Part shown: piece by piece, positions 5,995 to 47,242 of the stretch
Numbering within the stretch: the stretch's first letter is position 1
How the letters are laid out: every line of letters begins with the position of its first letter
Virus record (IMG/VR): IMGVR_UViG_2802429228_000006
Direction: 5' to 3' (one strand)
Length of the DNA: 47,939 nt
DNA from: a virus
Lineage: Duplodnaviria; Heunggongvirae; Uroviricota; Caudoviricetes
The notes under the pieces: generated by a model
What the model was told of the DNA's origin: nothing
Databases searched by the model: none
The model's input: only the letters and a program-made list of their open reading frames with translations
Translations under genes and position numbers: made by a program

Positions 5995-6002
5995 GATGGC
6001 AG

Positions 6003-6255: not shown

Positions 6256-6347
6256 GGCTGCCGATTTTGCGACAGCGGAAAAACTATATCCGCAAATGCC
6301 GGAAAAAGGCAAGCCAGAAAAAGGGACTTTTTGCAGAACAGGCATCA

Positions 6348-6997: not shown

Positions 6998-7076
6998 TAA
7001 AATATAAAAAAAACAAACAGTAAGCCGGTTTTTCCTGCGACCTTTTCCTGGCTTGCCGGTCTGAGGATGAGTCTCC

Positions 7077-7094
7077 TGTGTCAGGGCTGGCACA
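7077..7094 (+). promoter_or_regulatory. Delta/Ogr-type activator site (TGT-N12-ACA) of a P_sid-like late promoter
   Basis: tgtgtcagggctggcaca lies about 75-90 bp upstream of the sid ATG. Confidence 0.5.
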
Positions 7095-7166
7095 TCTGCA
7101 ATGCGTCGTGTTGTTGTCCGGTGTACGTCACAATTTTCTTAACCTGAAGTGACGAGGAGCCGGAAA

Positions 7167-8398: not shown

Positions 8399-8471
8399 GG
8401 GCTGCCGGTTAATACCGGCCGTCGCCGCACACCGTATTTTTATTCTTCAGCATGATGAGAAAGAGATAACG

Positions 8472-9044
8472 ATGGAAAGCACAGCCTTACAGCAGGCCTT
8501 TGACACCTGTCAGAATAACAAAGCAGCATGGCTGCAACGCAAAAATGAGCTGGCTGCGGCCGAACAGGAATATCTGCGGCTTCTGTCCGGGGAAGGCAGA
8601 AACGTCAGTCGCCTGGACGAATTACGCAATATTATCGAAGTCAGAAAATGGCAGGTGAATCAGGCCGCCGGTCGTTATATTCGTTCGCATGAAGCCGTTC
8701 AGCACATCAGCATCCGCGACCGGCTGAATGATTTTATGCAGCAGCACGGCACAGCACTGGCGGCGGCACTGGCACCGGAGCTGATGGGCTACAGTGAGCT
8801 GACGGCCATTGCCCGAAACTGTGCCATACAGCGTGCCACAGATGCCCTGCGTGAAGCCCTTCTGTCCTGGCTTGCGAAGGGGGAAAAAATTAATTATTCC
8901 GCACAGGATAGCGACATTTTAACGGCCATCGGATTCAGGCCTGACGCGGCTTCGGTGGATGACAGCCGTGAAAAATTCACTCCTGCGCAGAACATGATTT
9001 TTTCGCGTAAAAGTGCGCAACTGGCATCACATCAGTCTGTGTAA
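8472..9044 (+). CDS. psu: Psu, polarity suppression protein (Rho antagonist / capsid decoration)
   Basis: 190 aa; the MESTALQQAFDTCQNNKAAWLQRKNELAAAEQEYLRL N-terminus is recognisable as P4 Psu. Confidence 0.9.
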   Translation: MESTALQQAFDTCQNNKAAWLQRKNELAAAEQEYLRLLSGEGRNVSRLDELRNIIEVRKWQVNQAAGRYIRSHEAVQHISIRDRLNDFMQQHGTALAAALAPELMGYSELTAIARNCAIQRATDALREALLSWLAKGEKINYSAQDSDILTAIGFRPDAASVDDSREKFTPAQNMIFSRKSAQLASHQSV

Positions 9045-9080
9045 AACTCCCCGAAAATCCGCCCGTTTTTACTGAAAAAA

Positions 9081-9119
9081 GCCATGCATCGATAAGGTGC
9101 ATGGCTTTGCATGCGTTTT
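9081..9119 (+). terminator. Hairpin plus T-rich tract downstream of psu
   Basis: gccatgcatcgataaggtgcatggc followed by tttgcatgcgtttt. Confidence 0.45.
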
Positions 9120-9208
9120 CCTGCCTCATTTTCTGCAAACCACGCCATTCCCGGCGCGGTCTGAGCGTGTCAGTGCAACTGCATTAAAACCGCCCCGCAA
9201 AGCGGGCG

Positions 9209-9227
9209 GGCGAGGCGGGGAAAGCAC
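9209..9227. other. cos site, P2/P4 type (19-nt cohesive-end sequence)
   Basis: ggcgaggcggggaaagcac matches the P2/P4 cohesive end as I recall it, in the P4 position just past psu. Confidence 0.7.
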
Positions 9228-9315
9228 TGCGCGCGCATTGAATTAATTTATTAATAATTAAACTAGAATATGGAGTGGAGAAGTAAGAAACTTATAACAC
9301 TAAGGATAAGAGGAT

Positions 9316-11403: not shown

Positions 11404-11410
11404 GGACAAT

Positions 11411-11429
11411 GGCGCGTTAAAAACGCGCC
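11411..11429. terminator. Bidirectional terminator between the cargo gene and int
   Basis: Perfect palindrome ggcgcgttaaaaacgcgcc flanked by T-runs. Confidence 0.5.
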
Positions 11430-11430
11430 T

Positions 11431-12624
11431 TTAGTTATTTTTTTTTACTTTGTTTCCCCACCATTCCATGAGTTCAATTCGTTGCTCTAAGTATGTAGAT
11501 CTATTGTATGCTCTCCGAACTTCATTTTTATCACTGTGAGCTAAAGCCGCTTCAATAACATCTGCATTGAAACCAGCTTCATTCATTGCAGTGCTTGCAA
11601 TAGAGCGAAGGCCATGAGCAACTAGTTTTCCGCCAAAACCAATGCGTTTTAAAGCTGCATTAGCAGTTTGGCTATTCATTGGCTGTTTAGGGTCATTTCT
11701 ACTTGGAAAAATATGTTCACGATGGGCACTAATAGGCTTCATTACTTCCAAAATATCTAAAGCCTGACGTGATAAAGGAACAATGTGTTCACGTTTGGCT
11801 TTCATCCGTTCAGGGGGAATAGTCCAGAGTTTTGTATCAAGATCGATCTCTGCCCAACAAGCACCAGAGGCTTCAGAAGGGCGTACAAGCGTCAAGAGTT
11901 GCCATTCAATGAGACAGCGAGTCGGAACAGATAGGTTTGACATAGCTAAAGAACGCATCAGCTTCGGCAATTCTTCTGGCCGCAATGTTGGCATGTTTTG
12001 CTTTTTTGGCTTCTCAAAGGCCATCCCAACCCCAGATGCTGGATTGGCATCAATCAGACCAGTGTTTACAGCGTAAATCATTATCTCGTTAATTCGCTGT
12101 ATCAGTCGACGTACAGTTTCAAGAGCCCCACGAGCTTTGATTGGCTCAAGAGCTTCGACTAGCGTCCGGGCTTTGATTTGCTGGACGGGAATCTCTCCAA
12201 TGGCTGGGAATATGTCTTTTTCCAGCGAACGCCATATATCTTTAGCGTAATCAGGGGAAACGCTTTTGCTTTTTATCTGAAACCAGTTGGTCGCAACAGT
12301 CGAAAAAATACTGTCTAGAGCTATCTGTTGTTGTTCTTCGATAAATTCAGCTTGAACTTGTGGGTCTATACCATTAGCCAACAAAGCAAGGTAATCCGCT
12401 CTTAACCGTCGAGCATCAGCAAGTGAAAGAGCGGGGAAAGCACCTATCCCCATCATTGTTCTTTTTTTTGTAGCTGGTCGTTGATAGCGAAATCGCCAAA
12501 GTTTCTTACCGCTTGTTTTCACTATCAGAAAGAGGCCTTCGCCATCATGCAACGTCAGATCCTTTTCTAATGCTTTAGCGCGCAGAACTTCTGTATTGGT
12601 TAGGGGGCGTGTTGTTCTTGCCAC
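11431..12624 (-). CDS. int: P4-type tyrosine integrase (IntA-like)
   Basis: 397-aa product with a P4/CP4-57 integrase-like sequence and a C-terminal catalytic region (HGLR..., ...AHSD...RAY). Adjacent to the att repeat. Confidence 0.9.
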   Translation of the reverse strand: MARTTRPLTNTEVLRAKALEKDLTLHDGEGLFLIVKTSGKKLWRFRYQRPATKKRTMMGIGAFPALSLADARRLRADYLALLANGIDPQVQAEFIEEQQQIALDSIFSTVATNWFQIKSKSVSPDYAKDIWRSLEKDIFPAIGEIPVQQIKARTLVEALEPIKARGALETVRRLIQRINEIMIYAVNTGLIDANPASGVGMAFEKPKKQNMPTLRPEELPKLMRSLAMSNLSVPTRCLIEWQLLTLVRPSEASGACWAEIDLDTKLWTIPPERMKAKREHIVPLSRQALDILEVMKPISAHREHIFPSRNDPKQPMNSQTANAALKRIGFGGKLVAHGLRSIASTAMNEAGFNADVIEAALAHSDKNEVRRAYNRSTYLEQRIELMEWWGNKVKKNN

Positions 12625-12808: not shown

Positions 12809-12853
12809 TGGTGGAGCTGGCGGGAGTTGAACCCGCGTCCGAAATTCCTACAT
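12809..12853 (-). repeat. 45-bp direct repeat of the ssrA 3' end (att core copy)
   Basis: tggtggagctggcgggagttgaacccgcgtccgaaattcctacat is identical to 46879..46923, the 3' end of intact ssrA, then diverges. Confidence 0.85.
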
Positions 12854-12969: not shown

Positions 12970-14193
12970 TTATTTTAAATATTCATACTTCATCATTTGA
13001 TGAATAAGGAGTTCAACTTTTCTAAAAGTGGTATTTTCATAATGTTCAACAAGGGATTCATCAAAGTCTTCAATCCATCCTTTTGCGGGATTATAGGTCG
13101 AAAAATTAAAATTATTTTTGTATAGATAGGGGGTGGCTTCTAGTGTACTAAACACAGTCCAGGAAACAGGGTTTGTAACTCTAAATATTTTTTTTAAAAC
13201 AGGACAGTGGGTATCATTGGTTTCAACTATGTTTTCTATTTTTGGGGGGATAATTACATTAATCCCAATATCGCTATCTTTTTGGTTTAATATCTTTGTT
13301 GATCGATACGATATCCCTGATATATTTTTGTTTCTGTCACTACTAATCCATTGCATTAATAGGTTTGGTATTATGTATTCTTTATTAAAACTTGCGTTTT
13401 CATTATCTTTTGTATAGTTACATGCAAGGACTAAAGGCCATGCAATCAACTTTGAAATTTTATCATTAATTTGATCCATGAAATTATCATTATTTAGATC
13501 GTAATCATCATCTGAACCTTGTTCGAATGAATACCAAAGATCTCCCGGTTTTGTACGAAGTGCAGATGTTAAATTGTACCCAAGATCTAAAATTCTTATA
13601 TTTGAATTTTCTTTATCGGATATGAAGGAAGATATGTAAAGTTTATCAAAGTCAGGTTTTCCCATTTCTTGCCAACATACAAATATTGATGTTCCAAGAT
13701 ATAAACATGGAAGACCGGATACAGAAAATCTTTGTGCGCTAACTAAATGTCTATTTTTAAATGGTATATGAAATAATTCTTCTCTTTGTTTTAGGATGCA
13801 CTCACTTTTCCTTACGCGAAATAAAGGGGTGTGTGGGTTGCATAATTTAGTTAGAGGAACAGTCATCTTATAAAGATGAGTATGCATTGATGACTTGGTA
13901 ATTGCCAAATCGAATTTTTTATAAGCTTCTTTAACATTTCCTATTAAAAATAGCTTAAGAGTTTCTATTATTTTATCAGATAAATATATTATTGATTTTG
14001 TGCGAATCTTTACTTGTTTAATTATCTCGTTGTCAGGATATTTATTTCTAATGGAGTCAATTAATTCTAAATAGCACTCGACTCTCTTAGAAAAGTCAGA
14101 AATTAGTTTTCCCTCGGCAATGAATGGGGGTTGCAATAGTTCATGTTTTTTTAGTTCTTCCGATATCTGTTCTAATTCGATAATGTTGCGCAT
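12970..14193 (-). CDS. RES-domain protein (407 aa), candidate NAD-targeting toxin / abortive-infection effector
   Basis: AT-rich ORF between att and int. LFRVR...QRFSVSGLPCLYLGTSIFVCWQE matches the RES signature (R...GRWN..G.P.LY......E). No adjacent partner gene. Confidence 0.6.
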   Translation of the reverse strand: MRNIIELEQISEELKKHELLQPPFIAEGKLISDFSKRVECYLELIDSIRNKYPDNEIIKQVKIRTKSIIYLSDKIIETLKLFLIGNVKEAYKKFDLAITKSSMHTHLYKMTVPLTKLCNPHTPLFRVRKSECILKQREELFHIPFKNRHLVSAQRFSVSGLPCLYLGTSIFVCWQEMGKPDFDKLYISSFISDKENSNIRILDLGYNLTSALRTKPGDLWYSFEQGSDDDYDLNNDNFMDQINDKISKLIAWPLVLACNYTKDNENASFNKEYIIPNLLMQWISSDRNKNISGISYRSTKILNQKDSDIGINVIIPPKIENIVETNDTHCPVLKKIFRVTNPVSWTVFSTLEATPYLYKNNFNFSTYNPAKGWIEDFDESLVEHYENTTFRKVELLIHQMMKYEYLK

Positions 14194-14197: not shown

Positions 14198-15217
14198 TTA
14201 ATCCATCAAGGTTGCTAATGGGTTTTTAGTTACTGCATCTTCAAGATGATCTGGGGAAAAATGAGCGTAAATCATCGTCATTTTTATATCGGCATGTCCA
14301 AGAATATCGCGCAGTACCAGTATATTTCCACCGTTCATCATAAAATGACTGGCAAATGTATGGCGCAGAACATGGGTACATTGGCCTTCTGGTAGTTCTA
14401 AACCGGCTCGCTTTACTGCACGCTCAAAGGCTTTTCTGCATGGGGTGAATAACTTCCCCCTATTCTTAGGCAGTTCTTCATATAAATCCTTAGAAATAGG
14501 CACAGTTCGGTTTTTCTTGCCTTTGGTCTTGGTATAAGTGATACGGTATTTTGATACCTGATGACTCTGCAGGTTTTCGGCTTCGCTCCAGCGTGCGCCG
14601 GTGGCCAGGCATATTTTTGCAATCAAAAGCAGGCTGGAGCTTTGAGAATCGGCGCAGGCATCCAGCAGACGTTTAATTTCTTCCGGGGTCAGGAACGCCA
14701 ATTCACTCTCAGCAATTTTAAATGTTGGCAGCCCAGCAAGCGGGTTGGGGGCTGACCAGTGGCCCAGCTTTTTCAGTGTACCAAAAACAGATGATAGATT
14801 GCGCTGTTCAAGGTTTACCGTGCGGGGCTTAACGGGCGACATAAACGTGCCATCTTCATTTCGTACTTCACCTTTTAACCGTGCTTCGCGGTATTTCGTA
14901 AAGTCACCGGCTGTCAGTTCTGAAGCGATGGGATCGCCTAGACCATTACAGATAATTCTAAGTTTCGCTATGAGGCGCTTGGGGTCTGCGAGTGTTTGAC
15001 CATACAGGGAATACCACTGCTCAATTAATTCTGATAGGTGTCGCCGATCTTCCTTTTCCCCCAGCCATGGTTTTTTGTTCACTTCTTCCATTGTGAAGCT
15101 TTCAAAAGCAATGGCTTCGCCTTTCGTAGCAAATTGCTTACGCACGCGCTTGCCATTGCGTCCATTGGGATAGCACTCGCACAACCATTTACCGTTTGGC
15201 TGTTTTCTGACAGTCAT
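14198..15217 (-). CDS. int: P2/186-family tyrosine integrase
   Basis: 339 aa with a C-terminal catalytic region (ARWSEA..., HVLRHTFAS, ...MTMIYAH); position next to the repressor. Confidence 0.9.
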   Translation of the reverse strand: MTVRKQPNGKWLCECYPNGRNGKRVRKQFATKGEAIAFESFTMEEVNKKPWLGEKEDRRHLSELIEQWYSLYGQTLADPKRLIAKLRIICNGLGDPIASELTAGDFTKYREARLKGEVRNEDGTFMSPVKPRTVNLEQRNLSSVFGTLKKLGHWSAPNPLAGLPTFKIAESELAFLTPEEIKRLLDACADSQSSSLLLIAKICLATGARWSEAENLQSHQVSKYRITYTKTKGKKNRTVPISKDLYEELPKNRGKLFTPCRKAFERAVKRAGLELPEGQCTHVLRHTFASHFMMNGGNILVLRDILGHADIKMTMIYAHFSPDHLEDAVTKNPLATLMD

Positions 15218-15219: not shown

Positions 15220-15852
15220 TTAGATACTCTTTATTACTTTGACTGCACGCCCAATAACTTCCACATCATCGGCAGAGCACTCGAAAGACGCTTCATCTTG
15301 ATTTACTACAATCTTATTGCCGGGAATCCGCATGATTTTTGCAATAATAATCATTCCATCAATATTGATAAGCCAGAATCCATTGCTGACTTGTTTAACT
15401 GATTTATCGATGAGATAACAATCAGTAGGGGTTTCTAAGAACATCGATTCTTCATAATCTGCAGGTAATATGCTGTGGTCTAGGAAAATCTCTTCATCAA
15501 TACTGAGTTGTCCATTTTCCAAGGTTCCTTTAGGAATAGATGGAGTTATGAGTTTGGATAACGGTTTAATTGCTTGTTTGTTCTCGTTATGAGATCTTTT
15601 CTCAGACTCGTATCCTTCTTTCATGCTTCCCTGTCCAGTGGCTAACCAAAGTAACGAAACACCGGTTTCTAGTGCACACTGAATTATCCAGTCAGCAGGA
15701 AAACTGTCACGTAACACTCTGTTTGCCATAGTACTTTTTGAGACATTCAGGTGCTCGCTTAATGCCTGCTTAGTTGTGAATCCATAAGCCTCAAGCAGCC
15801 TCTCAATAGCTGCCTTACCTCCCGTATCGGAACCCATTCTGATGTTTAACAT
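15220..15852 (-). CDS. cI: 186-type CI immunity repressor
   Basis: 210 aa with an N-terminal HTH; divergent from an Apl-like gene across an operator-bearing intergenic region; GGAG RBS. Confidence 0.7.
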   Translation of the reverse strand: MLNIRMGSDTGGKAAIERLLEAYGFTTKQALSEHLNVSKSTMANRVLRDSFPADWIIQCALETGVSLLWLATGQGSMKEGYESEKRSHNENKQAIKPLSKLITPSIPKGTLENGQLSIDEEIFLDHSILPADYEESMFLETPTDCYLIDKSVKQVSNGFWLINIDGMIIIAKIMRIPGNKIVVNQDEASFECSADDVEVIGRAVKVIKSI

Positions 15853-17822: not shown

Positions 17823-18049
17823 TGGCAGATGCAATGGATCTCGTACAGCAGCGCGTTGAAGAAGAACGCCAGCGCTATATCCGTGCTGCCCGTGCCAAAA
17901 CACCGGGCGTGTCTCGTGTGCTTTGTATTGAATGTGAAGCGCCAATTCCGCCAGCACGACGCCGCGCCATTCCTGGAGTGCAGCTTTGCATTACCTGTCA
18001 GGAAATCGCAGAGCTGAAAGGCAAACATTACAACGGAGGTGTTGTATGA
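17822..18049 (+). CDS. TraR/DksA-family C4 zinc-finger protein
   Basis: CIECEAPIP...CITCQ four-Cys motif in a 75-aa protein, typical of phage TraR-like proteins. Confidence 0.7.
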   Translation: MADAMDLVQQRVEEERQRYIRAARAKTPGVSRVLCIECEAPIPPARRRAIPGVQLCITCQEIAELKGKHYNGGVV

Positions 18050-18903
18050 GCACCATCCTGAAATGGGCGGGAAATAAAACCGCCATTATGTCCGAACTGA
18101 AAAAACATCTTCCTGCTGGCTCGCGACTGGTTGAACCTTTCGCGGGTTCCTGTGCTGTGATGATGGAGACGGATTACCCCAGCTATCTTGTTGCGGATAT
18201 TAATCCTGATTTAATCAACCTCTATAAAAAGGTTGCTGCTGATTGCGAGGCGTTTATATCTCGTGCCAGAGCTTTATTTGAGGAAGCAAACAGGGATGTG
18301 GCTTATTACAACATAAGGCAGGAGTTTAATTACTCCATTGAAATTACTGATTTCATGAAAGCGGTATATTTCCTGTATCTCAATCGTCATGGTTACCGTG
18401 GGTTATGTCGCTATAACAAGAGCGGGCATTTCAACATTCCGTACGGTAATTATAAAAATCCGTATTTCCCTGAAAAAGAAATTCGCGCATTTGCAGAGAA
18501 AGCCCAGCGGGCAACGTTTATATGCGCCAGCTTTGATGAAACGCTGGCGATGTTGAAGGCGGGGGATGTGGTGTATTGCGATCCGCCTTATGACGGTACG
18601 TTTTCCGACTATCACACTGACGGCTTCACTGAAGATGACCAGTATCACCTGGCATCCCTTCTTGAACATCGGTCATCAGAAGGACATCCGGTCATTGTTT
18701 CTAACAGTGACACATCCCTGATCCGTTCGCTGTATCGCAATTTTACTCACCACTACATCAAGGCAAAACGCAGCATCGGCGTAGCAGCTGGTGAGAGTAA
18801 ATCTGCAACAGAAATCATCGCTGTTTCCGGGACACGCTGCTGGGTGGGATTTGATTATTCGCGTGGCGTGGATAGTTCAGCCGTGTACGGAGTACGTGCA
18901 TGA
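18046..18903 (+). CDS. dam: DNA adenine methyltransferase (Dam-like, N6-MTase)
   Basis: KWAGNK...FAGS motif I and DPPY motif IV; ATG at 18046 with a GGAGG RBS. The track start at 17986 is an upstream extension overlapping the previous gene. Confidence 0.85.
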
Positions 18904-22221: not shown

Positions 22222-23631
22222 ATGTCTTTTCTTGATATAAAAAAAATGAGTAAAGAGAGGTTTAATGCTTTTGTTGATTGGACCAGAATGCCAAATACTG
22301 AACTTTTAGGCTATGAGTTTGAGTGGTACTGTAGTCCGAGAGAGTTCCTGCTAGGGGCACTATTATTGGATCAAATCGATGAAGATTATAGCGGTATTGT
22401 TTTAGCAAGAGACTTAAGTGGGAGATATAGATGTATTGACCTATTTACTAGTGTTTCAGAAATGAATTCTGCACGAGCAAAACTAAAGAAATTAATGCGG
22501 AAGCATACTAAATTAAACGTAAAAGTATTTCCACAAGGTGATGAAACTTATAAAGCAATGGATTTATTCACACCTATAGTTACACCAGATAAACTTCATC
22601 ATCATTTTTCATTATTTGGTAAATATGCGAACTGGTCGCCTGCAACAGGGATAATCAAGGAAATGATGAATCATTTTGAGGATGTCGACGGGAATTTTAT
22701 AGAGCAGTTTCAGACAACAGGTTTTGATGCCCGGCTATGGGAGTTATATCTTTTCGCATATTTACGAGAGGAACACTTTTGGCTAGATAGGCAGTTTAAT
22801 GCCCCTGATTATGTGGCACGTAAGTATGGTAATACTATTTGCATTGAAGCTGTAACGGTTAATCCAACAGGGAATGATATTAATCAATCATCTGAAATGC
22901 TATCTGAACCTAAAAGTAAGGAAGAATTGCTAGAGAAAATAGAGAATTATATGCCGATTAAATTTGGAAGTTCTCTCTATTCTAAACTGAAAAAGAAAAC
23001 TCGATACTGGGATCTAGAACATGTTAAGGGGAATCCTTTAATTTTCGCAATTGCTGATTTTCATGAACCAAACTCTATGATTTGGTCCCATAGTGCACTT
23101 TGGCAGTATCTTTATGGTATTCGCTATGAGCATGTTAAATCTGAAGATGGATGTTACAGTTTAGCAACTAAGAAAATTATATCGCATCAATTTGAGAAAA
23201 AGGAAATCCCTTCAGGCTTTTTCTTCTTGGATGAGTCTGAAAATATTTCGGCCGTCCTTAGTTCTAATAGTGGTACTATATCGAAGTTTAATCGGATGGG
23301 AAAACTGGCTGGTTTTGGAAGAAGTGACCTTAGATTATTTAGGAGTGGTTACTGCCATGATCATGACCCAGAGGCATTATATCCAGCAGCATTTAGTTTT
23401 GAAGTGAAAGAAGGCGATATTACAGAAACATGGGCAGAAGGTTTAAATATGTATCATAATCCTAATGCTAAATATCCTGTAGATCCTGATTTATTTCCTT
23501 CAATAGCACATCATTTTCTTGAAAATGGAGAGGTTAAAAGTATAGTGCCTGACTTTCATCCGTATACATCTATTACCATAAATGTCTTAACTCAAAATAA
23601 TAAAAAACAAAAAATCAGAGTAGATGAGTAA
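22222..23631 (+). CDS. Cargo protein (469 aa) of unrecognised family; candidate anti-phage factor
   Basis: AT-rich ORF in the variable region between gene A and portal gene Q; no P-loop, RT or obvious nuclease motif. Confidence 0.7.
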   Translation: MSFLDIKKMSKERFNAFVDWTRMPNTELLGYEFEWYCSPREFLLGALLLDQIDEDYSGIVLARDLSGRYRCIDLFTSVSEMNSARAKLKKLMRKHTKLNVKVFPQGDETYKAMDLFTPIVTPDKLHHHFSLFGKYANWSPATGIIKEMMNHFEDVDGNFIEQFQTTGFDARLWELYLFAYLREEHFWLDRQFNAPDYVARKYGNTICIEAVTVNPTGNDINQSSEMLSEPKSKEELLEKIENYMPIKFGSSLYSKLKKKTRYWDLEHVKGNPLIFAIADFHEPNSMIWSHSALWQYLYGIRYEHVKSEDGCYSLATKKIISHQFEKKEIPSGFFFLDESENISAVLSSNSGTISKFNRMGKLAGFGRSDLRLFRSGYCHDHDPEALYPAAFSFEVKEGDITETWAEGLNMYHNPNAKYPVDPDLFPSIAHHFLENGEVKSIVPDFHPYTSITINVLTQNNKKQKIRVDE

Positions 23632-32496: not shown

Positions 32497-34197
32497 TTAT
32501 TCAAGGTGATTTGAAAGAGTAATTAATGGCTCAATCGGTTGGAACGCTTTTAAGGATGTTAATATGTTTTTAACTTCCTTTGATACGATAGATAACGGGT
32601 TGTCTGTTACAGATAAGTAGGTGGTTAAATCTTGACCTGAAACACGGATAACATGTGGTAATATCGCAGTTATAACTGGTGTCCAAAGGTCGATTAAATC
32701 ATCCAGAGAGTTATTTTTAGATAATGCTGTATCATATTTATATTTTATTTTCTTCTTGTTCAAAGGTTTATCTGTTAATTCTTCAAGTATTTCTCCGATG
32801 ACGGATATTAAAAAGAATCGAGACTTTAAATTTTGGAGGAATAATAAGTTATCCTCATCTACTTTAATTTTATTCTCTTTTGCACGGATTTGAGATTTTA
32901 CTTTTTCTATAGCTTTTGAAATAGTGTAAGCACATAAAATATGCTGGGCTTTCGAATCATGAAAGGCATTGTCATAGGCTGATTTTGTATCGAAAACGTA
33001 GTTTTTACCTCTATTGGCGCTAACATAATCCCCATGTAACGCTATCAGCGGTTGAGCAACAGACTCAATGCCAAATAAAGAACCAGTATTTTCGAAGCCG
33101 CGTTTCAGTGAATATGTATAACCAAGAGTGGAAAATTCTTCTGCCACCTGTTTTTGTTCTGTGCTGTTAGAGTAGTGATCCCAGGTTGTAATATGATTCT
33201 GAGTATTATTATACTGGACTATTTTTTTTACTTTGTCCGCATCATTACATTCAATAACCTTACAAAGGACTTTTAGGCCATCTAATTTTTGTATATCTTG
33301 AACTGAACCAATAGAACCAGTGGTTTGAGCTCCATTTATGATTGAAACTCCTTCCAACAACCCTTTTTCTTTGTTGAATTTTGTTGTTAGGATTGATACA
33401 CCATTGTTAAAGACAAAGAAGTCTTTTGGGGATGTTTCTGCGGTATTCTTAATTGATGAGTTTATTTTTCTTCTCTTATTTAATCCCATGAACCCCCTAT
33501 AATTAGCAGAAAATAATTCTGCTCCATAATTTTTGTATAAATAATTTAGCCAAGTGCCGTTTGCAAAGCCAACATGTGAAGTCCAGCCATCACCTTGTAC
33601 AGAATTTATAAGTTCGCCATTGAACTTTATATTGTCAGTCACAACAATTTGTTGTGATAGCGCAATATACAATTTTTCAAGACTATTAACACCAAGTTCT
33701 CTGTAAGTTACCTCAATTTCTTTGTCTGCAAATCTACCTGCTAGATAGTCACGACAAGTTTCAAGCTCAGTTTTAACCTGCTCAGATTCGGCACAATTAT
33801 GGATATATAATAATTCAACAGCTTCAATTTCGTTATCATCAATTAATTTTCTAACCTCAGAAATTTTTGCTCTTAATTTTGCATTTGGAGACTCTCCTGA
33901 GCCTGCCATAATCCACGCTAAAGCAGTGTTTAAGTCAGAAGCTTTATTTGCAGGCGCAACTATTTTAAGTGCTTGCTGATTGCAGTAGTAACCCTGAGCA
34001 ATAAATAACGTTGAATTAATTACGGTAATGAAGTCTATTTTCTTATCGTTTCCACCATCAGTAAGTCCATCAGATGCTAGCTTATCAAAATCGGATTCAT
34101 CTAAGTAAAGACCTAATGACCATAAAAGATGTGCGTTACTAGTCCCGTACTTTTCTAACAGGGAAGTTTTATTTTGCAGTTGTCTTAAGTGTTCCAT
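32497..34197 (-). CDS. AIPR-type (abortive infection phage resistance) protein, 566 aa
   Basis: AT-rich ORF antisense to the tail genes; the conserved block ...GVSIINGAQTTGS... resembles the AIPR family. Confidence 0.65.
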   Translation of the reverse strand: MEHLRQLQNKTSLLEKYGTSNAHLLWSLGLYLDESDFDKLASDGLTDGGNDKKIDFITVINSTLFIAQGYYCNQQALKIVAPANKASDLNTALAWIMAGSGESPNAKLRAKISEVRKLIDDNEIEAVELLYIHNCAESEQVKTELETCRDYLAGRFADKEIEVTYRELGVNSLEKLYIALSQQIVVTDNIKFNGELINSVQGDGWTSHVGFANGTWLNYLYKNYGAELFSANYRGFMGLNKRRKINSSIKNTAETSPKDFFVFNNGVSILTTKFNKEKGLLEGVSIINGAQTTGSIGSVQDIQKLDGLKVLCKVIECNDADKVKKIVQYNNTQNHITTWDHYSNSTEQKQVAEEFSTLGYTYSLKRGFENTGSLFGIESVAQPLIALHGDYVSANRGKNYVFDTKSAYDNAFHDSKAQHILCAYTISKAIEKVKSQIRAKENKIKVDEDNLLFLQNLKSRFFLISVIGEILEELTDKPLNKKKIKYKYDTALSKNNSLDDLIDLWTPVITAILPHVIRVSGQDLTTYLSVTDNPLSIVSKEVKNILTSLKAFQPIEPLITLSNHLE

Positions 34198-40303: not shown

Positions 40304-40819
40304 ATGGCTTTACCACGCAAATTAAAACACCTGAACCTGTTTAACGACGGGAACAACTGGCAGGGGATCGTTGAGTCGCTGACGCTGCCGAAATTTACCC
40401 GCAAATATGAGAAGTATCGCGGCGGCGGAATGCCGGGTGCGGTGGATGTGGATCTGGGGCTTGATGACAGTGCGCTGGACACAGAATTTTCCATTGGTGG
40501 TACTGAATTGCTGCTGTTTAAACAGATGGGTAAAGCCACGGTGGATGGCATCCAGCTGCGCTTTACCGGCTCTATTCAGCGTGACGATACCGGGGAAGTG
40601 CAGGCCGTGGAGCTTGTCGTGCGTGGACGTCACAAAGAAGTGGATTCCGGCGAGTGGAAGACGGGCGAAAGCAACACCACCAAAGTGACCAGTACCAACA
40701 GCTACGCGAAGCTGACCATCAATGGTGAGGTGCTCTATGAAGTGGACCTTATCAACATGGTGGAAATTGTGGACGGTGTGGACCTGATGGAAGCGCACCG
40801 CAACGCCCTCGGCCTCTGA
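40304..40819 (+). CDS. FII: Tail tube protein (P2 FII homolog)
   Basis: 171 aa. Confidence 0.9.
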   Translation: MALPRKLKHLNLFNDGNNWQGIVESLTLPKFTRKYEKYRGGGMPGAVDVDLGLDDSALDTEFSIGGTELLLFKQMGKATVDGIQLRFTGSIQRDDTGEVQAVELVVRGRHKEVDSGEWKTGESNTTKVTSTNSYAKLTINGEVLYEVDLINMVEIVDGVDLMEAHRNALGL

Positions 40820-40873
40820 TATATCTGAACGGCGCGGGATACCGCGCCAGAACCCAATTGACAGGACAGCAAA

Positions 40874-41176
40874 ATGAGCGATAAGCAGACTGAAAAGACC
40901 ATTCAACTGGATACCCCCATCAAGCGCGGTAAAACAGAAATCACCGAAATTGTGCTGCGTAAACCGCAGTCCGGTGCGCTGCGCGGTACACGCCTGCAGG
41001 CCATTATGGATATGGATGTAAACGCGATGATGACCGTGATCCCCCGCATCTCCAGTCCGGCACTGACTGCACAGGAAATTGCAGAGATGGACCCGGCAGA
41101 TCTCACTGCCATGTCGGTTGAGGTTGTCACTTTTTTATTGAAGAAGTCGGTGCTTGCCGGTTTACCGACAGCCTGA
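40874..41176 (+). CDS. E: Tail assembly chaperone E (zero-frame product)
   Basis: 100-aa ORF upstream of the tape measure gene. Confidence 0.8.
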   Translation: MSDKQTEKTIQLDTPIKRGKTEITEIVLRKPQSGALRGTRLQAIMDMDVNAMMTVIPRISSPALTAQEIAEMDPADLTAMSVEVVTFLLKKSVLAGLPTA

Positions 41177-41310
41177 CGGTTGACGATCTGGTGGCAGATA
41201 TCGCCACCATTTTTCACTGGCCGCCATCCGTTACTGACGTTATGCCGCTGACCGAAGTGCTGGAATGGCGGTATAAAGCGATTCAGAGAAGCGGGGCCAA
41301 CGATGAGTGA
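40874..41310 (+). CDS. E': E' (E+E' fusion) made by programmed -1 ribosomal frameshift at T_TTT_TTA (about 41131..41137)
   Basis: Slippery heptamer in E-frame codons ACT TTT TTA; the -1 frame then reads ...FFIEEVGACRFTDSLTVDDLVADIATIFHWPPSVTDVMPLTEVLEWRYKAIQRSGANDE to a TGA overlapping the T start. Confidence 0.65.
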
Positions 41311-44300
41311 TAACAACCTGCGTCTGCAGGTCATTCTTAATGCGGTTGACAAGCTCACCCGCCCATTTCGATCTGCGCAGGCCAGTTCAAGAGAACTGGC
41401 TGCTGCTGTCAAAAAATCCCGCGATGCAATAAAGCAGCTTGATCAGGCCGGGAGCAGTCTGGACAGCTTCCGAAAGCTGCAGGCAGAAAATCAGAAATTA
41501 GGCGACAGGCTGAACTATGCCCGCCAGCGTGCAAATTTGCTCAGTCAGGAACTGGGAGCGATGGGGCCGCCTTCGCAACGTCAGGTTGTTGCTCTGGGCC
41601 GTCAACGGCTGGCTGTTCAGCGCCTGGAAGAACGCCAGAAAAAGCTGCAGCGGCAGACGGCGCTTGTGCGTGCTGAACTGTACCGGGCGGGAATTTCTGC
41701 GAAAGACGATGCGGGAGCAACTGCCCGTTTAGCCCGTGAAACATCACGTTATAACCAGGAACTTTCGAAACAGGAGGCGCGGCTGAAGCGACTGGGGGAA
41801 GCTCAGCGCAGGATGAATGCAGCGCGTGCCAGTTATGCCCGTTCGCTGGAGGTGCGTGATCGTATTGCAGGTGCCGGAGCCACCACCACGGCTGCAGGGC
41901 TGGCAATGGGTGCGCCAGTGATGGCGGCAGTAAAAAGCTATACCAGCATGGAAGATGCCATGAAAGGTGTGGCAAAGCAGGTCAGTGGTCTGCGTGACGA
42001 TAATGGCAACCGCACTGCACGTTTTTATGAAATGCAGGATGCCATCAAGGCTGCCAGCGAACAGTTGCCGATGGAAAACGGTGCGGTGGACTTCGCTGCA
42101 CTGGTTGAAGGTGGTGCGCGCATGAACGTCGCAAACCCTGACGACAGCTGGGAAGATCAGAAACGTGACCTGCTGGCCTTCGCCAGTACGGCAGCAAAGG
42201 CGGCAACAGCCTTTGAGCTGCCAGCGGATGAACTGTCAGAAAGTCTGGGGAAAATCGCCCAGCTCTACAAAATCCCCACCCGCAATATTGAACAGCTCGG
42301 TGATGCGCTGAACTATCTGGATGATAACGCCATGTCGAAAGGGGCAGACATCATTGATGTGATGCAACGTCTGGGCGGTGTGGCTGACCGTCTGGATTAT
42401 CGTAAAGCGGCGGCGCTGGGTTCCACCTTCCTGACACTGGGCGCTGCGCCAGAGGTTGCAGCCAGTGCAGCAAACGCGATGGTGCGTGAATTGTCCATTG
42501 CCACCATGCAAAGCAAGAGTTTCTTTGAAGGGATGAATCTGCTGAAACTCAATCCTGAAGTGATTGAAAAGCAGATGACGAAGGATGCGATGGGAACCAT
42601 CCAGCGCGTGCTGGAGAAGGTAAACGCGCTGCCGCAGGACAAGCGCCTGTCTGCCATGACTATGTTGTTTGGTAAAGAGTTTGGCGATGACGCGGCGAAA
42701 CTGGCAAACAACCTGCCGGAACTGCAGCGTCAGTTAAAACTGACAGCGGGCAATGATGCGCTTGGCTCCATGCAGAAAGAATCCGACATTAACAAGGATT
42801 CACTTTCTGCGCAGTGGTTGCTGGTCAAAACCGGAGCGCAGAACACCTTCAGCAGCCTGGGCGAAACGCTGCGCCAGCCGCTGATGGATATTCTGTACAC
42901 GGTGAAAAGCGTCACGGGGGCGTTGCGTCGCTGGGTGGAAGCTAACCCGGAACTGACAGGCACACTGATGAAAGCATCGGCTGTTGTGGCTGCGGTTACC
43001 GTCGGCCTCGGCACCTTAGCGGTGGCGCTGGCTGCAGTGCTGGGGCCGCTGGCAGTGATCCGTCTGGGATTCTCTGTGTTGGGTATCAAAACGTTATCTT
43101 CCGTTACGGCAGCAGTAACTCGAACCAGCAGCGCGTTGTCCTGGCTGGCTGGCGCACCACTGGCACTGCTGCGACGCGGGCTTGCTTCATCGGGCAACGC
43201 CGCAGGTTTACTTACTGCGCCGTTGTCGTCTTTGCGCCGCACGGCATCACTGACGGGAAATGTCCTGAAAACTGTAGCAGGTGCGCCGGTTGCACTTTTG
43301 CGGTCTGGATTATCCGGTTTACGTGCTGTTGCTGTGATGTTTATGAATCCTCTGGCGGTACTGCGCGGTGGACTGGCCGCCGCAGGCACGGTGCTGCGAG
43401 TACTGGCATCTGGTCCACTGGCGATGCTGCGCGTTGCCCTGTATGCCATATCTGGTCTGTTAGGTGCTCTGCTCAGTCCGATAGGTCTTGTGGTTACTGC
43501 ACTGGCGGGCGTGGCGCTGGTTGTCTGGAAATACTGGCAACCTATCACCGCATTTCTCGGTGGCGTGGTGGAAGGATTCAAAGCGGCGGCAGGTCCCATC
43601 AGTGCAGCGTTCGAACCGCTTAAGCCCGTGTTCCAGTGGATTGGCGACAAAGTGCAGGCGCTGTGGGGCTGGTTTACTGATCTGCTGACGCCCGTTAAGT
43701 CGACCTCTGCCGAACTGCAGAGCGCAGCGGCAATGGGGCGGCGATTCGGGGAGGCACTGGCGGAAGGGCTGAATATGGTCATGCATCCGCTGGACTCCCT
43801 GAAATCCGGCGTTTCCTGGTTGCTGGAGAAGCTCGGCATTGTCAGTAAAGAGGCCGCAAAGGCAAAACTGCCGGAAAGCGTGACGCGTCAGCAACCTGCG
43901 ACGGTGAATGCAGACGGTAAAGTGATGATGCCATCGGGTGGTTTTCCATCATGGGGATATGGCTTTGCGGGGATGTATGACAGCGGCGGGTATATCCCGC
44001 GCGGGCAGTTTGGCATCGTCGGTGAAAACGGGCCGGAAATTGTTAACGGCCCGGCAAATGTGACCAGCCGGAGAAATACAGCTGCACTGGCTGCCGTTGT
44101 TGCCGGAATGATGGGCGTTGCTGCCGCGCCAGCAGAGCTTCCACCGTTGCACCCCTTGGCACTTCCCGCGAAAGGTGGAGAAGCAATTGTGAGTCGCGCA
44201 GCCACTGTGCCACTCGTTCAACGGATTGAGGCACCGACGCAGATCATCATTCAGACGCAGCCAGGACAAAGTGCGCAGGATATTGCGCGGGAGGTGGCAC

Positions 44301-44380
44301 GCCAGCTTGATGAACGTGAACGCAGGCTGAAGGCAAAAGCCAGGAGTAACTACAGCGATCAGGGGGGATACGACGCATGA
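41303..44380 (+). CDS. T: Tail tape measure protein (P2 T homolog)
   Basis: 1025 aa with coiled-coil N-terminal half and periodic hydrophobic repeats. Confidence 0.9.
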   Translation: MSDNNLRLQVILNAVDKLTRPFRSAQASSRELAAAVKKSRDAIKQLDQAGSSLDSFRKLQAENQKLGDRLNYARQRANLLSQELGAMGPPSQRQVVALGRQRLAVQRLEERQKKLQRQTALVRAELYRAGISAKDDAGATARLARETSRYNQELSKQEARLKRLGEAQRRMNAARASYARSLEVRDRIAGAGATTTAAGLAMGAPVMAAVKSYTSMEDAMKGVAKQVSGLRDDNGNRTARFYEMQDAIKAASEQLPMENGAVDFAALVEGGARMNVANPDDSWEDQKRDLLAFASTAAKAATAFELPADELSESLGKIAQLYKIPTRNIEQLGDALNYLDDNAMSKGADIIDVMQRLGGVADRLDYRKAAALGSTFLTLGAAPEVAASAANAMVRELSIATMQSKSFFEGMNLLKLNPEVIEKQMTKDAMGTIQRVLEKVNALPQDKRLSAMTMLFGKEFGDDAAKLANNLPELQRQLKLTAGNDALGSMQKESDINKDSLSAQWLLVKTGAQNTFSSLGETLRQPLMDILYTVKSVTGALRRWVEANPELTGTLMKASAVVAAVTVGLGTLAVALAAVLGPLAVIRLGFSVLGIKTLSSVTAAVTRTSSALSWLAGAPLALLRRGLASSGNAAGLLTAPLSSLRRTASLTGNVLKTVAGAPVALLRSGLSGLRAVAVMFMNPLAVLRGGLAAAGTVLRVLASGPLAMLRVALYAISGLLGALLSPIGLVVTALAGVALVVWKYWQPITAFLGGVVEGFKAAAGPISAAFEPLKPVFQWIGDKVQALWGWFTDLLTPVKSTSAELQSAAAMGRRFGEALAEGLNMVMHPLDSLKSGVSWLLEKLGIVSKEAAKAKLPESVTRQQPATVNADGKVMMPSGGFPSWGYGFAGMYDSGGYIPRGQFGIVGENGPEIVNGPANVTSRRNTAALAAVVAGMMGVAAAPAELPPLHPLALPAKGGEAIVSRAATVPLVQRIEAPTQIIIQTQPGQSAQDIAREVARQLDERERRLKAKARSNYSDQGGYDA

Positions 44381-44862
44381 TGATGGTGCTGGGATTGTAC
44401 GTGTTTATGCTGCGCACCGTTCCGTATCAGGAACTGCAGTATCAACGCAGCTGGCGACATGCGGCAAACAGTCGGGTAAACCGACGTCCGTCCACGCAGT
44501 TTCTGGGACCGGAAAACGACATGCTGACGCTTTCCGGTGTTCTTATGCCGGAAATAACAGGCGGCAGGCTGTCGTTGCTGGCACTGGAGCAGATGGCAGA
44601 ACAGGGGAAAGCATGGCCCCTGATTGAAGGCAGCGGCACGATTTACGGCATGTATGTGATTGAGGGACTGAATCAGACTAAAACGGAGTTTTTCCGCGAC
44701 GGTATGCCGCGCCGGATTGAGTTCACCCTGTCGCTCAAACGAGTGGATGAATCCCTGTCCGATATGTTCGGTGATCTCAGTGCGCAACTGAATAATCTGC
44801 AGGACACGGCAACGTCTGCCTTAAGCGATATCAGTAAAACGGTGGGAGGGCTGCTGTCGTGA
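44377..44862 (+). CDS. U: Tail protein U
   Basis: 161 aa. Confidence 0.85.
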   Translation: MMMVLGLYVFMLRTVPYQELQYQRSWRHAANSRVNRRPSTQFLGPENDMLTLSGVLMPEITGGRLSLLALEQMAEQGKAWPLIEGSGTIYGMYVIEGLNQTKTEFFRDGMPRRIEFTLSLKRVDESLSDMFGDLSAQLNNLQDTATSALSDISKTVGGLLS

Positions 44863-45959: not shown

Positions 45960-46027
45960 AGTGTTCTCAATATTGATATTTTGTGTATCATTACAATGAT
46001 TCTGATAGCAAAGGTAGGGATCTGGAT

Positions 46028-46246
46028 ATGATGAATTGTCCAAAGTGTGGTCATGCGGCACACACAAGGAGCAGTTTTCAAGTAACTGAAAGCACCAAAG
46101 AGCGTTACTGCCAGTGCCAAAATATTAACTGCGGGAGCACTTTTGTTACCCATGAAACAGTGGTCCGGTTTATTGTGACACCCGCACTGATTGCTACTGC
46201 TCCTCCACATCCATTGCCAGGTGGTCAGGGGCATATGAATTTTTGA
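46028..46246 (+). CDS. ogr: Ogr, late-gene zinc-finger transcriptional activator
   Basis: MMNCPKCGHAAHTRSS...CQCQNINCGSTF matches the Ogr C2C2 zinc finger; start chosen at the homolog N-terminus. Confidence 0.8.
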   Translation: MMNCPKCGHAAHTRSSFQVTESTKERYCQCQNINCGSTFVTHETVVRFIVTPALIATAPPHPLPGGQGHMNF

Positions 46247-46253: not shown

Positions 46254-46275
46254 AACCTGCTACGGCAGGTTTTTA
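46254..46275. terminator. Bidirectional terminator between ogr and the convergent cargo gene
   Basis: aacctgctacggcaggtt followed by ttta. Confidence 0.5.
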
Positions 46276-46755
46276 TTCATCTGGGATCTCACCCGTTTCA
46301 AGAAAATGTATAAAGCCAGGCTCATCTATGATGATTGTGCCTTTCATCCTGGCTGCCGATACTTTTGATGGGCCTGCATTGTAACCGCAACAGAGCATCT
46401 GAAGGCTTTGGGTTACAGAGGTTCTTACCGTTAATCCTTGTTCATTCGCCTTATCAACCAATCTTTCTTTATCTGCTTTCTTAAATCCGGTGAAACACAC
46501 ATCGAATGTATTTTTTTTCGGACCAGACTGCTTAGTGAGATGTGAGTAGTTTTCGGGGAGGAATGACGCGCATTCCTGAATGGCTTGTTCTGGTGAATCG
46601 TACTGTTTAAGAATGCGGTCTTTTCGGAAGGTTTTTATTCGATCGGTGTTCTTACAAATGCCCTGTATATGATTTTCGCTATAACTGATGCTCTGTATTG
46701 AGTGAACTCCGATACGACCATTTGCATTGATGTAAACAAAGTGAAGTTCTTCCAT
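46273..46755 (-). CDS. Small cargo protein (160 aa) with WYL-like N-terminal and BRCT-like C-terminal domain
   Basis: N-terminal ...IKTFRKDRI resembles the WYL signature (RTFRLDRI); the C-terminal hydrophobic/Gly pattern (VCFTGF...GPSK...IIIDEPGFIHFL) resembles a BRCT fold; AAGAGG RBS. Confidence 0.55.
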   Translation of the reverse strand: MEELHFVYINANGRIGVHSIQSISYSENHIQGICKNTDRIKTFRKDRILKQYDSPEQAIQECASFLPENYSHLTKQSGPKKNTFDVCFTGFKKADKERLVDKANEQGLTVRTSVTQSLQMLCCGYNAGPSKVSAARMKGTIIIDEPGFIHFLETGEIPDE

Positions 46756-46878: not shown

Positions 46879-47242
46879 TGGTGGAGCTGGCGGGAGTTGA
46901 ACCCGCGTCCGAAATTCCTACATCCTCGGTACTACATGCTTAGTCAGTCTTTACATTCGCTTGCCAGCTGCGGACAGACACGCCACTAACAAACTAGCCT
47001 GATTAAGTTTTAACGCTTCAACCCCAGGCAAGGCTTCCACGCGATCTCTTTTGGGTTTGACCTCTCTTGATCCCCGTCCTAAGAGCGGAGGCTAGGGAGA
47101 GAGGGCTCTAAGCAGGTTATTAAGCTGCTAAAGCGTAGTTTTCGTCGTTTGCGACTATTTTTTGCGGCTTTTTACGAGGCCAACCGCCCCTCGGCATGCA
47201 CCTTGGGTTTCGCAAATCCCGTCGAATCCAGAATCAGCCCCA
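46879..47242 (-). ncRNA. ssrA: tmRNA (SsrA, 10Sa RNA)
   Basis: The reverse complement reads GGGGCTGATTCTGGATTCGACGGGATTTGCG...GCAAACGACGAAAACTACGCTTTAGCAGCT...GGTTCAACTCCCGCCAGCTCCACCA, including the ANDENYALAA tag-coding region. Ends may be off by 1 nt. Confidence 0.95.

What the first reader, a model, noticed from the sequence alone, without database searches (positions are those of the whole stretch)
41131..41137. Programmed -1 frameshift site producing E' from gene E
The heptamer T_TTT_TTA lies in the correct phase near the 3' end of E. The -1 frame is open for a further ~58 codons and terminates at a TGA overlapping the tape-measure start codon. This is the conserved tail-chaperone frameshift arrangement and is invisible to ordinary ORF calling.
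Basis: partly seen in the sequence, partly recalled or inferred. Interest (0 to 1): 0.45.

Follow-up and report, generated by a model that had tools for sequence, protein, structure and literature searches.

The report
P2-type E/E+E' tail-chaperone frameshift site
This is the well-known programmed -1 ribosomal frameshift that lets a P2-family prophage of E. coli make two tail-assembly chaperones (E and the longer E+E') from one start codon; it is real, conserved and ordinary, and differs from phage P2 only by a harmless G-to-A change in the last base of the slippery sequence.

Summary
TTTTTTA lies at 41131-41137 in the X_XXY_YYZ phase of gene E (40874-41176, 100 aa). The -1 frame is open for 57 codons and stops at TGA 41308-41310, 8 nt into the tape-measure gene T (ATG 41303). 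So the stop lies just past the T start codon rather than on it.

The interpretation also holds. E matches Pfam Phage_TAC_7, and the -1 extension matches Phage_P2_GpE over its full length (4e-19). The heptamer aligns with the annotated -1 frameshift site of phage P2. In 273 of 278 related loci T_TTT_TTR sits in the same phase. Purifying selection switches from frame 0 to frame -1 at the heptamer.

The window's only peculiarity is A instead of the usual G as the last heptamer base. This is a recent and recurrent variant, synonymous in E and Val-to-Ile in E+E'. Published E. coli reporter data show the two heptamers are equally shifty.

No downstream RNA stimulator is supported. A conserved Shine-Dalgarno-like GAGGT 6 nt upstream is a weak, untested lead.

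RefSeq annotates this site as two separate genes rather than a fusion.

Verdict: already known, low interest.

The parts
40874..41176 (+). Gene E, the zero-frame product: a 100-aa tail assembly chaperone.
   Evidence: ORF. Pfam Phage_TAC_7 1e-18, PHROG 103 4e-44. 42% identical to P2 gpE in the protein alignment; 43.7% over the tblastn segment.
41131..41137 (+). Slippery heptamer T_TTT_TTA in X_XXY_YYZ phase. This is the site of the -1 shift.
   Evidence: Same alignment column as P2's annotated site. First six bases invariant in 75 unique relatives; the last base is only G or A. T_TTT_TTR present in 273 of 278 loci.
41137..41310 (+). E' segment: -1 frame, 57 codons plus TGA. It is translated only as the C-terminal extension of E. 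The fusion E+E' is 40874-41137 joined to 41137-41310, 145 aa.
   Evidence: Pfam Phage_P2_GpE 4e-19 over 37/37 positions; PHROG 1756 9e-23. In 41177-41307, synonymous vs nonsynonymous differences are 326/196 in frame -1, against 68/475 and 46/496 in the other frames.
41138..41176 (+). Dual-coding overlap: the last 12 codons and stop of E in frame 0, and the first 13 codons of E' in frame -1.
   Evidence: Diversity at frame-0 third positions falls from 0.332 upstream to 0.114 here, as expected if frame -1 is already being translated upstream of the GTG at 41191.
41303..44380 (+). Gene T, the tape measure protein (1025 aa). Its first 8 nt overlap the end of E'.
   Evidence: Pfam PhageMin_Tail 2e-18. 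Same 8-nt overlap in P2.
40304..40819 (+). Gene FII, the tail tube protein, immediately upstream of E.
   Evidence: Pfam Phage_tube 9e-60.
41120..41124 (+). Candidate Shine-Dalgarno-like element GAGGT, separated from the heptamer by 6 nt (its GAGG core by 7 nt). Hypothetical upstream stimulator, not shown to function.
   Evidence: The third base of codon -4 is G in 76/77, 58/58 and 51/51 unique sequences of three subfamilies. Predicted anti-SD duplex -10.3 kcal/mol, top 1.2% of 12-mers in the tail operon. Weak or absent in some distant relatives.
41146..41169 (+). Weak hairpin GUCGGU...ACCGAC, 8 nt downstream of the heptamer. Not supported as a stimulator.
   Evidence: Fold z-score -0.47. Alignment fold has covariation term +0.6, and no compensatory change in this stem. 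No Rfam match.

Best explanation
This is the E/E+E' programmed -1 ribosomal frameshift of a P2-family prophage (Fels-2/186-like) integrated at ssrA in E. coli.

Most ribosomes translate E to its stop at 41174-41176 and make the 100-aa tail assembly chaperone. A minority slip back one base when tRNA-Phe (on UUU) is in the P site and tRNA-Leu (on UUA) is in the A site of U_UUU_UUA. Both tRNAs re-pair on UUU_UUU. Translation then continues at AUU (41137-41139) in the -1 frame for 57 codons, giving the 145-aa fusion E+E'.

By analogy with lambda G/GT, the shared N-terminal part binds the tape measure protein T. The rarer E' extension recruits tail-tube subunits, so the fixed ratio set by the frameshift serves tail assembly.

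What is shown here: the site, its phase, the open frame, homology of both parts, conservation of the heptamer, and selection on frame -1.

What is inferred from P2 and lambda: that the fusion protein is actually made, its abundance, and its chaperone role.

The A at 41137 (G in P2) is a near-neutral variant.
For: - Phase and open frame.
- E matches Phage_TAC_7 (1e-18). The extension matches Phage_P2_GpE (4e-19, 37/37 positions). Neighbours are the tail sheath, tube, tape measure, gpU, gpD and Ogr genes.
- The P2 record annotates E+E' as a joined CDS with 'site of -1 translational frameshift'. P2's TTTTTTG lies in the same phase and alignment column.
- Fels-2, Mana and Musica records state or annotate the frameshift.
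- tblastn of the fusion finds 419 phage records; 386 cover at least 80% of it, and the listed full-coverage rows are each two pieces.
- T_TTT_TTR is in phase in 273 of 278 loci. Two distant relatives carry other canonical heptamers (G_GGA_AAG, A_AAT_TTT) at the equivalent place.
- The first six heptamer bases are invariant in 75 unique sequences, including two synonymous sites of frame 0.
- The frame under purifying selection switches. Upstream, synonymous vs nonsynonymous is 386/202 in frame 0. Downstream of the E stop it is 326/196 in frame -1.
- Literature: P2 shifts at TTTTTTG to give E (91 aa) and E+E' (142 aa); E' lacks a ribosome-binding site; no downstream structure (PMC3091744; PMC3931495).
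- UUUUUUA and UUUUUUG are equally shifty in E. coli reporters: 0.094/0.266/1.27% vs 0.118/0.247/0.765% (PMC4066793 supplement).
Against: - No protein-level evidence exists for this prophage, so the fusion and its frequency are inferred.
- The bare heptamer gives only about 0.1% shifting in reporters, and no supported stimulator was found. What sets the efficiency here is therefore unexplained.
- An ATG or GTG sits just before the conserved ADI motif in 125 of 127 unique sequences. Some independent initiation of a short E' cannot be excluded from sequence alone.
Confidence: 0.93

Rival explanations
1. E' is a separate small gene translated from its own start (GTG 41191) as a 39-aa 'GpE family' protein, as RefSeq/PGAP and several phage records annotate it. 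On this view the heptamer is incidental.
For: PGAP annotates a 120-nt CDS equivalent to 41191-41310 in an identical E. coli genome, as does the Cartapus record. The codon at that position is ATG or GTG in 125 of 127 unique relatives.
Against: - No Shine-Dalgarno sequence lies upstream of that codon (median anti-SD energy -3.7 kcal/mol). The literature says P2 E' lacks a ribosome-binding site.
- Ralstonia (GCC) and Mannheimia (ATT) relatives have no standard start codon there. Met and Val are also simply similar residues.
- Constraint on frame -1 already shows between the heptamer and 41191 (frame-0 third-position diversity 0.114 vs 0.332).
- PHROG 1756 aligns from residue 2 of the extension.
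- Independent initiation does not explain the invariant in-phase heptamer in 273 of 278 loci.
Confidence: 0.04
2. The frame change is made by RNA polymerase slippage on the T6 run, which deletes or adds a U in a fraction of transcripts, rather than by the ribosome.
For: The invariant element is a homopolymeric run of six T, which could also fit a slippage-prone template.
Against: - From general knowledge, not tested here: productive transcriptional slippage in bacteria is described for runs of about 8-9 or more A/T.
- The heptamer is always in the X_XXY_YYZ phase, which matters for tRNA re-pairing but not for polymerase slippage.
- Distant relatives have non-homopolymeric canonical heptamers (G_GGA_AAG, A_AAT_TTT) at the equivalent position.
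Confidence: 0.02
3. The site is a relic in a decayed prophage and no longer does anything.
For: None specific. The window is a chromosomal prophage, not an isolated phage.
Against: - All late genes around it are full length.
- att repeats flank the element.
- The same region, 97-99.8% identical, occurs in records deposited as phages such as KP12 and Cartapus.
- The substitution pattern shows continuing purifying selection.
Confidence: 0.01

Closest known systems
Bacteriophage P2 genes E and E+E' (Christie et al. 2002, PMID 12426340; record NC_001895)
   Same: - Same gene order: FI-FII-E/E'-T-U-D-ogr.
- Same protein families for both parts.
- Slippery heptamer in the same phase and alignment column.
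- -1 extension of 57 codons here and 54 in P2.
- Identical 8-nt overlap of E' with T.
- No supported downstream RNA structure.

   Different: - The last heptamer base is A instead of G.
- E is 100 aa instead of 91, so the dual-coding overlap is 12 codons instead of 6.
- The fusion is 145 aa instead of 142.
- Sequence identity to P2 is only about 42-44% for E and 54% for E'.

Fels-2 (Salmonella) and Elveevirus/Wadgaonvirus prophages such as Cartapus and 500465-1
   Same: The fusion is 87-98% identical, both have a 145-aa product, and both integrate next to ssrA. The Fels-2 record notes that gpE+E' forms by translational slippage.
   Different: These carry TTTTTTG. The window's nearest relatives differ from it at only 1 of 849 other positions yet have G.
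Phage lambda G/GT and the conserved tail-assembly-chaperone frameshift of tailed dsDNA phages (Levin et al. 1993; Xu et al. 2004)
   Same: Two overlapping reading frames lie between the major tail gene and the tape measure gene, joined by a low-frequency -1 shift at a canonical heptamer. The shared N-terminal part binds the tape measure and the extension binds tail-tube subunits (review PMC5009743).
   Different: No sequence similarity to lambda G/GT is reported. Lambda uses G_GGA_AAG. P2-family phages have contractile tails.
HIV-1 gag-pol slippery site U_UUU_UUA
   Same: The heptamer sequence is identical. It predicts a possibly mixed junction (Leu or Phe) depending on whether one or two tRNAs slip.
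   Different: HIV-1 is a eukaryotic system with a downstream stem-loop stimulator. There is no evolutionary relationship.

Membership tests
P2-type E/E+E' tail chaperone frameshift | Upstream ORF is a gpE homologue (Phage_TAC_7) located between the tail tube and tape measure genes. | tested here: met
   Pfam 1e-18. Neighbours match Phage_tube 9e-60 and PhageMin_Tail 2e-18.
P2-type E/E+E' tail chaperone frameshift | Canonical X_XXY_YYZ heptamer in phase near the 3' end of E, at the position of P2's site. | tested here: met
   T_TTT_TTA at 41131-41137 with phase 2. Aligned with P2 T_TTT_TTG and P2's annotated frameshift site.
P2-type E/E+E' tail chaperone frameshift | The -1 frame extension is homologous to P2 E' (Phage_P2_GpE). 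| tested here: met
   Pfam 4e-19 over 37/37 positions. 54% identity to P2 E' by tblastn.
P2-type E/E+E' tail chaperone frameshift | E' lacks its own translation initiation signals. | tested here: inconclusive
   No SD-like sequence upstream, and no ORF of 40 aa or more is called in that frame. However, a GTG is present at 41191 and is usually ATG or GTG in relatives.
P2-type E/E+E' tail chaperone frameshift | The end of E' overlaps the start of the tape measure gene. | tested here: met
   8-nt overlap, 41303-41310. Same overlap in P2, 19850-19857.
P2-type E/E+E' tail chaperone frameshift | Purifying selection acts on the -1 frame downstream of the site. | tested here: met
   Synonymous vs nonsynonymous 326/196 in frame -1, against 68/475 and 46/496 in the other frames.
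P2-type E/E+E' tail chaperone frameshift | The fusion protein is actually produced and is essential for tail assembly. | not testable with these tools
   Shown for P2 only (Christie et al. 2002, as cited).
dnaX/IS-type stimulated -1 frameshift signals (upstream SD and/or downstream hairpin or pseudoknot) | A conserved downstream RNA structure 5-9 nt after the heptamer. | tested here: not met
   z-score -0.47. Covariation term +0.6, with only 2 of 21 pairs showing compensatory change and none in the proximal stem. No Rfam hit at E-value up to 1.
dnaX/IS-type stimulated -1 frameshift signals (upstream SD and/or downstream hairpin or pseudoknot) | A conserved SD-like sequence 6-17 nt upstream of the heptamer. 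| tested here: inconclusive
   The GAGG core lies 7 nt upstream. The synonymous G is nearly invariant in three subfamilies. Duplex energy is in the top 1.2%. The element overlaps conserved E/K-V-V codons and is weak or absent in Mana, Mannheimia, 503458 and one enteric exception.

The most novel reading that the evidence does not exclude
The P2-family E/E+E' frameshift may be boosted by an upstream Shine-Dalgarno-like element. This is GAGGT here at 41120-41124, AAGGUGG in P2, and GCGGUGG in SEN4-type phages.

Its G at a synonymous site is almost invariant across three subfamilies. The element would pair with the 16S rRNA 3' end while the heptamer is being decoded.

This could explain how a heptamer that shifts only about 0.1% on its own in reporters reaches a useful level without any downstream RNA structure.

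I found no mention of such an element for P2 in the papers I could search.
Probability: 0.2. Interest if true: 0.3.

Novelty: already known. Interest (0 to 1): 0.1.

Why it matters
The main value is for annotation. The site shows that this prophage encodes a 145-aa E+E' fusion, which ordinary gene callers miss or split. RefSeq/PGAP lists a 100-aa 'phage tail assembly protein' and a separate 39-aa 'GpE family phage tail protein'. The same region occurs in 999 of 5426 complete E. coli genomes.

Biologically it adds nothing new to the P2 and lambda paradigm.

The recurrent G/A polymorphism at the last heptamer base is a small natural confirmation of reporter data that UUUUUUA and UUUUUUG are equivalent in E. 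coli.

Tried and rejected
- **Downstream stimulatory RNA.** Single-sequence folds of the window, P2, Fels-2 and two distant relatives, plus an 18-sequence alignment fold, gave no significant stability for the window and no covariation. Rfam gave nothing at E-value up to 1. Rejected as unsupported, in line with the literature.
- **NCBIfam models.** None match E, E' or the fusion.
- **Solved structures.** No homologue by sequence at E-value up to 1.
- **Christie et al. 2002 (PMC135442).** Not held in the library. Its content is cited only through papers that summarise it. My recollection that its abstract reports a frameshift frequency of about 10% could not be verified and is not used as evidence.
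- **Open-frame geometry as a test of significance.** Rejected as insufficient, because seven heptamers in the window pass it.
- **Other passing heptamers.** Two A_AAA_AAG sites at 19794 and 20610 lie in an alternative frame of replication gene A, and several others are on the antisense strand of genes. These are artefacts of long open non-coding frames.
- **Structure prediction and large protein-database searches.** Not run, because Pfam, PHROG and annotated-record evidence was already decisive.

Full report
**1. The observation**

The sequence at 41131-41137 is TTTTTTA. The ORF that contains it runs 40874..41176 and encodes a 100-aa protein ending ...VEVVTFLLKKSVLAGLPTA. Since (41131-40874) mod 3 = 2, base 41131 is the third base of ACT (Thr), followed by TTT (Phe) and TTA (Leu). 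This is the X_XXY_YYZ phase required for tandem tRNA slippage.

The -1 frame is closed until 41122, only five codons before the slip point. It then runs from 41137 for 57 sense codons to TGA 41308-41310. No ORF of 40 aa or more is called in that frame, so it is indeed invisible to ordinary ORF calling.

One detail of the finding is inexact. The tape-measure ATG is 41303-41305 and the E' stop is 41308-41310. E' therefore overlaps T by 8 nt (ATGAGTGA), but its stop does not overlap the start codon. The TGA that does overlap the ATG is in the +1 frame.

**2. Is it more than chance?**

Geometry alone is not. The window holds 498 X_XXY_YYZ heptamers on the two strands. Seven of them have at least 60 open codons upstream in phase, a nearby zero-frame stop and at least 50 open codons in frame -1. 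A random frame in this window stays open for at least 57 codons 23% of the time. The case rests on three independent lines of evidence.

(a) Homology.
- E matches Pfam Phage_TAC_7 ('tail assembly chaperone proteins E, or 41 or 14') at 1e-18.
- The 59-residue -1 translation matches Pfam Phage_P2_GpE at 4e-19 across the whole 37-position profile.
- PHROG 1756 aligns from the second residue after the slip.
- The neighbours are tail sheath FI, tail tube FII, tape measure T, gpU, gpD and Ogr, which is the P2 FETUD operon order.

(b) Conservation of the site.
- In P2's own record E+E' is a joined CDS with a feature 'site of -1 translational frameshift'.
- P2's TTTTTTG falls in the same phase and the same alignment column as the window's heptamer.
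- Among 278 loci, T_TTT_TTR is present in phase with an E'-like -1 extension in 273. The loci are the window, 40 from species-representative genomes, 227 from viral contigs and 10 from phage records.
- Two of the failures are truncated contigs. Two distant relatives carry other canonical heptamers, G_GGA_AAG and A_AAT_TTT, at the equivalent place.
- In 75 unique ungapped sequences the first six heptamer bases never vary. Two of those bases are synonymous sites of frame 0, and the mean third-position diversity upstream is 0.33.

(c) Frame of selection. Codon differences from the window were counted across those 75 sequences.

| Region | Frame 0 (syn/nonsyn) | Frame -1 | Frame +1 |
|---|---|---|---|
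| Upstream of heptamer | 386/202 | 42/578 | 43/536 |
| Downstream of E stop (41177-41307) | 68/475 | 326/196 | 46/496 |

In the 36-nt overlap all three codon positions are constrained, with diversity 0.07, 0.06 and 0.11. The counts are per sequence, not per evolutionary event, but the reversal is unambiguous.

**3. What it is and how it works**

The window comes from E. coli. Four complete genomes are identical over 40800-41400, and 999 of 5426 carry the region.

The element is a P2-family prophage of the Fels-2/186 type. It runs from integrase (14198-15217) and CI repressor (15220-15852) to ogr (45983-46246). A 45-bp direct repeat of the ssrA 3' end bounds it.

The best explanation is the established one. 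Most ribosomes finish E. A minority slip -1 on U_UUU_UUA and continue at AUU 41137 to make the 145-aa E+E'. By analogy with lambda G/GT, the common part binds the tape measure and the rare extension recruits tail-tube subunits (review PMC5009743).

For P2, papers that summarise Christie et al. 2002 report several points (PMC3091744; PMC3931495):
- The shift occurs at TTTTTTG.
- It gives E (91 aa) and E+E' (142 aa).
- E' lacks a ribosome-binding site.
- No downstream structure is present.

Production of the fusion in this particular prophage is inferred, not shown.

**4. The one difference: A instead of G at 41137**

P2, Fels-2, Cartapus and the 99.8%-identical phage 500465-1 all have TTTTTTG. 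In the survey G outnumbers A 263 to 10. C and T never occur; either would change Leu to Phe in E.

The window's nearest relatives differ from it at 1 of 849 other positions and carry G, so the change is recent. The A state also appears in at least three other separate lineages.

The change is synonymous in E (TTG to TTA, Leu) and conservative in E+E' (GTT to ATT, Val to Ile).

Reporter measurements in E. coli show the two heptamers are functionally equivalent and intrinsically weak (Sharma et al. 2014 supplement):

| Heptamer | No stimulator | IS911 stimulators | IS3 pseudoknot |
|---|---|---|---|
| UUUUUUA | 0.094% | 0.266% | 1.27% |
| UUUUUUG | 0.118% | 0.247% | 0.765% |

T7G and T7C variants have been described in Stenotrophomonas and Xanthomonas relatives.

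**5. Stimulators**

No downstream structure is supported.
- The 53 nt after the heptamer fold no better than shuffles (z = -0.47).
- An 18-sequence alignment fold has a positive covariation term, and no compensatory change in the proximal stem.
- Rfam finds nothing.

Upstream, a Shine-Dalgarno-like GAGGT lies at 41120-41124.
- The G at the third position of the Glu, Lys or Ala codon that creates it is present in 76/77, 58/58 and 51/51 unique sequences of three subfamilies. In the most diverse subfamily only 3.8% of codons are as conserved at their third position.
- The predicted pairing with the 16S 3' end is -10.3 kcal/mol, in the top 1.2% of 12-mers in the tail operon. It is -13.5 kcal/mol in Fels-2 and -14.0 in P2.
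- Against this, the element overlaps conserved residues and is weak or absent in several distant relatives.
- From my own knowledge, its short spacing is not the optimum described for dnaX.

I treat it as an untested lead with about 20% probability.

**6. Rivals**

- Independent initiation at GTG 41191, the PGAP model, has one point in its favour: an ATG or GTG at that position in 125 of 127 unique sequences. Against it are the absence of an SD, exceptions with GCC and ATT, constraint on frame -1 upstream of that codon and the invariant in-phase heptamer.
- Transcriptional slippage is unlikely. The run is only six T, the phase is always kept, and distant relatives use non-homopolymeric heptamers.
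- A dead relic is unlikely given intact genes, att repeats, near-identical records deposited as phages, and ongoing purifying selection.

**7. Comparison and verdict**

All sequence-testable defining features of the P2 E/E+E' system are met. The one exception is 'no own initiation signal', which is inconclusive.

The feature is already known, and the Fels-2 record even says so in a note. The window adds only a neutral heptamer variant. It also shows that RefSeq splits the fusion into two genes. Interest is low.

Noticed in passing
window 12809-12853 and 46879-46923; tmRNA 46879-47241 (-): A 45-bp exact direct repeat of the 3' end of ssrA (tmRNA) flanks the P2-family prophage. These are its attL and attR, so the prophage is integrated at ssrA, as Fels-2 is.
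   Followed up: partly
window 1-12624: A P4-like satellite element sits immediately left of the prophage's attL. It has a 777-aa primase-helicase (2265-4598, -), C4 antisense RNA (6049-6136, -), isrK (6199-6276, -) and its own integrase (11431-12624, -). A helper prophage and its satellite therefore lie in tandem at ssrA.
   Followed up: partly
window 22222-23631 (+): A 469-aa protein matches the anti-phage defence model PD-T7-1 at E = 1e-196. It lies between replication gene A and the portal gene, a known cargo position in P2-like phages. It has no Pfam domain.
   Followed up: partly
window 32497-34197 (-): A 566-aa AIPR/AbiU-like abortive-infection protein (Pfam AIPR 1.6e-25; PADLOC AbiU 1.7e-24) is inserted on the opposite strand between the tail-completion and baseplate genes. 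The 99.8%-related phage 500465-1 has no gene there.
   Followed up: partly
window 12970-14193 (-), 9316-11403 (+), 46273-46755 (-): Three cargo ORFs of unknown function lie at element borders.
- A 407-aa ORF sits in a 33% GC segment just inside attL, with no family hit.
- A 695-aa ORF next to the P4-like integrase has only a weak SWIM/SEC-C tail match.
- A 160-aa ORF between ogr and ssrA has weak BRCT-like matches to the ligase and exonuclease C-termini and is labelled 'DNA ligase' in NC_049342.
These are possible uncharacterised defence genes.
   Followed up: partly
window 44362-44368: An in-phase G_GGG_GGA heptamer lies five codons before the stop of tape-measure gene T. Its -1 frame is the frame of gene U (44377-44862), so a slip would fuse T to U. 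GGGGGGA shifts at only 0.037% alone in reporters, so this is probably coincidence. Its conservation was not examined.
   Followed up: no
window 41120-41124: An SD-like GAGGT lies 6 nt upstream of the slippery heptamer (GAGG core 7 nt). Its synonymous G is almost invariant in three subfamilies of P2-like phages, making it a possible upstream frameshift stimulator.
   Followed up: partly
window 41191-41310; L132 6892-7011: RefSeq/PGAP and several phage records annotate E' as a free-standing 39-aa 'GpE family phage tail protein' starting at GTG, instead of a joined E+E' CDS. The Pfam GpE model begins at that same residue and covers only the stretch of that small ORF. This is a systematic annotation gap that likely applies across the roughly 1000 complete E. 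coli genomes carrying this region; only one record's feature coordinates were inspected.
   Followed up: yes
window 17986-18903 (+): An orphan type II-like DNA methyltransferase (PADLOC oMTase 1.4e-111) lies just upstream of replication gene A in the prophage early region.
   Followed up: no
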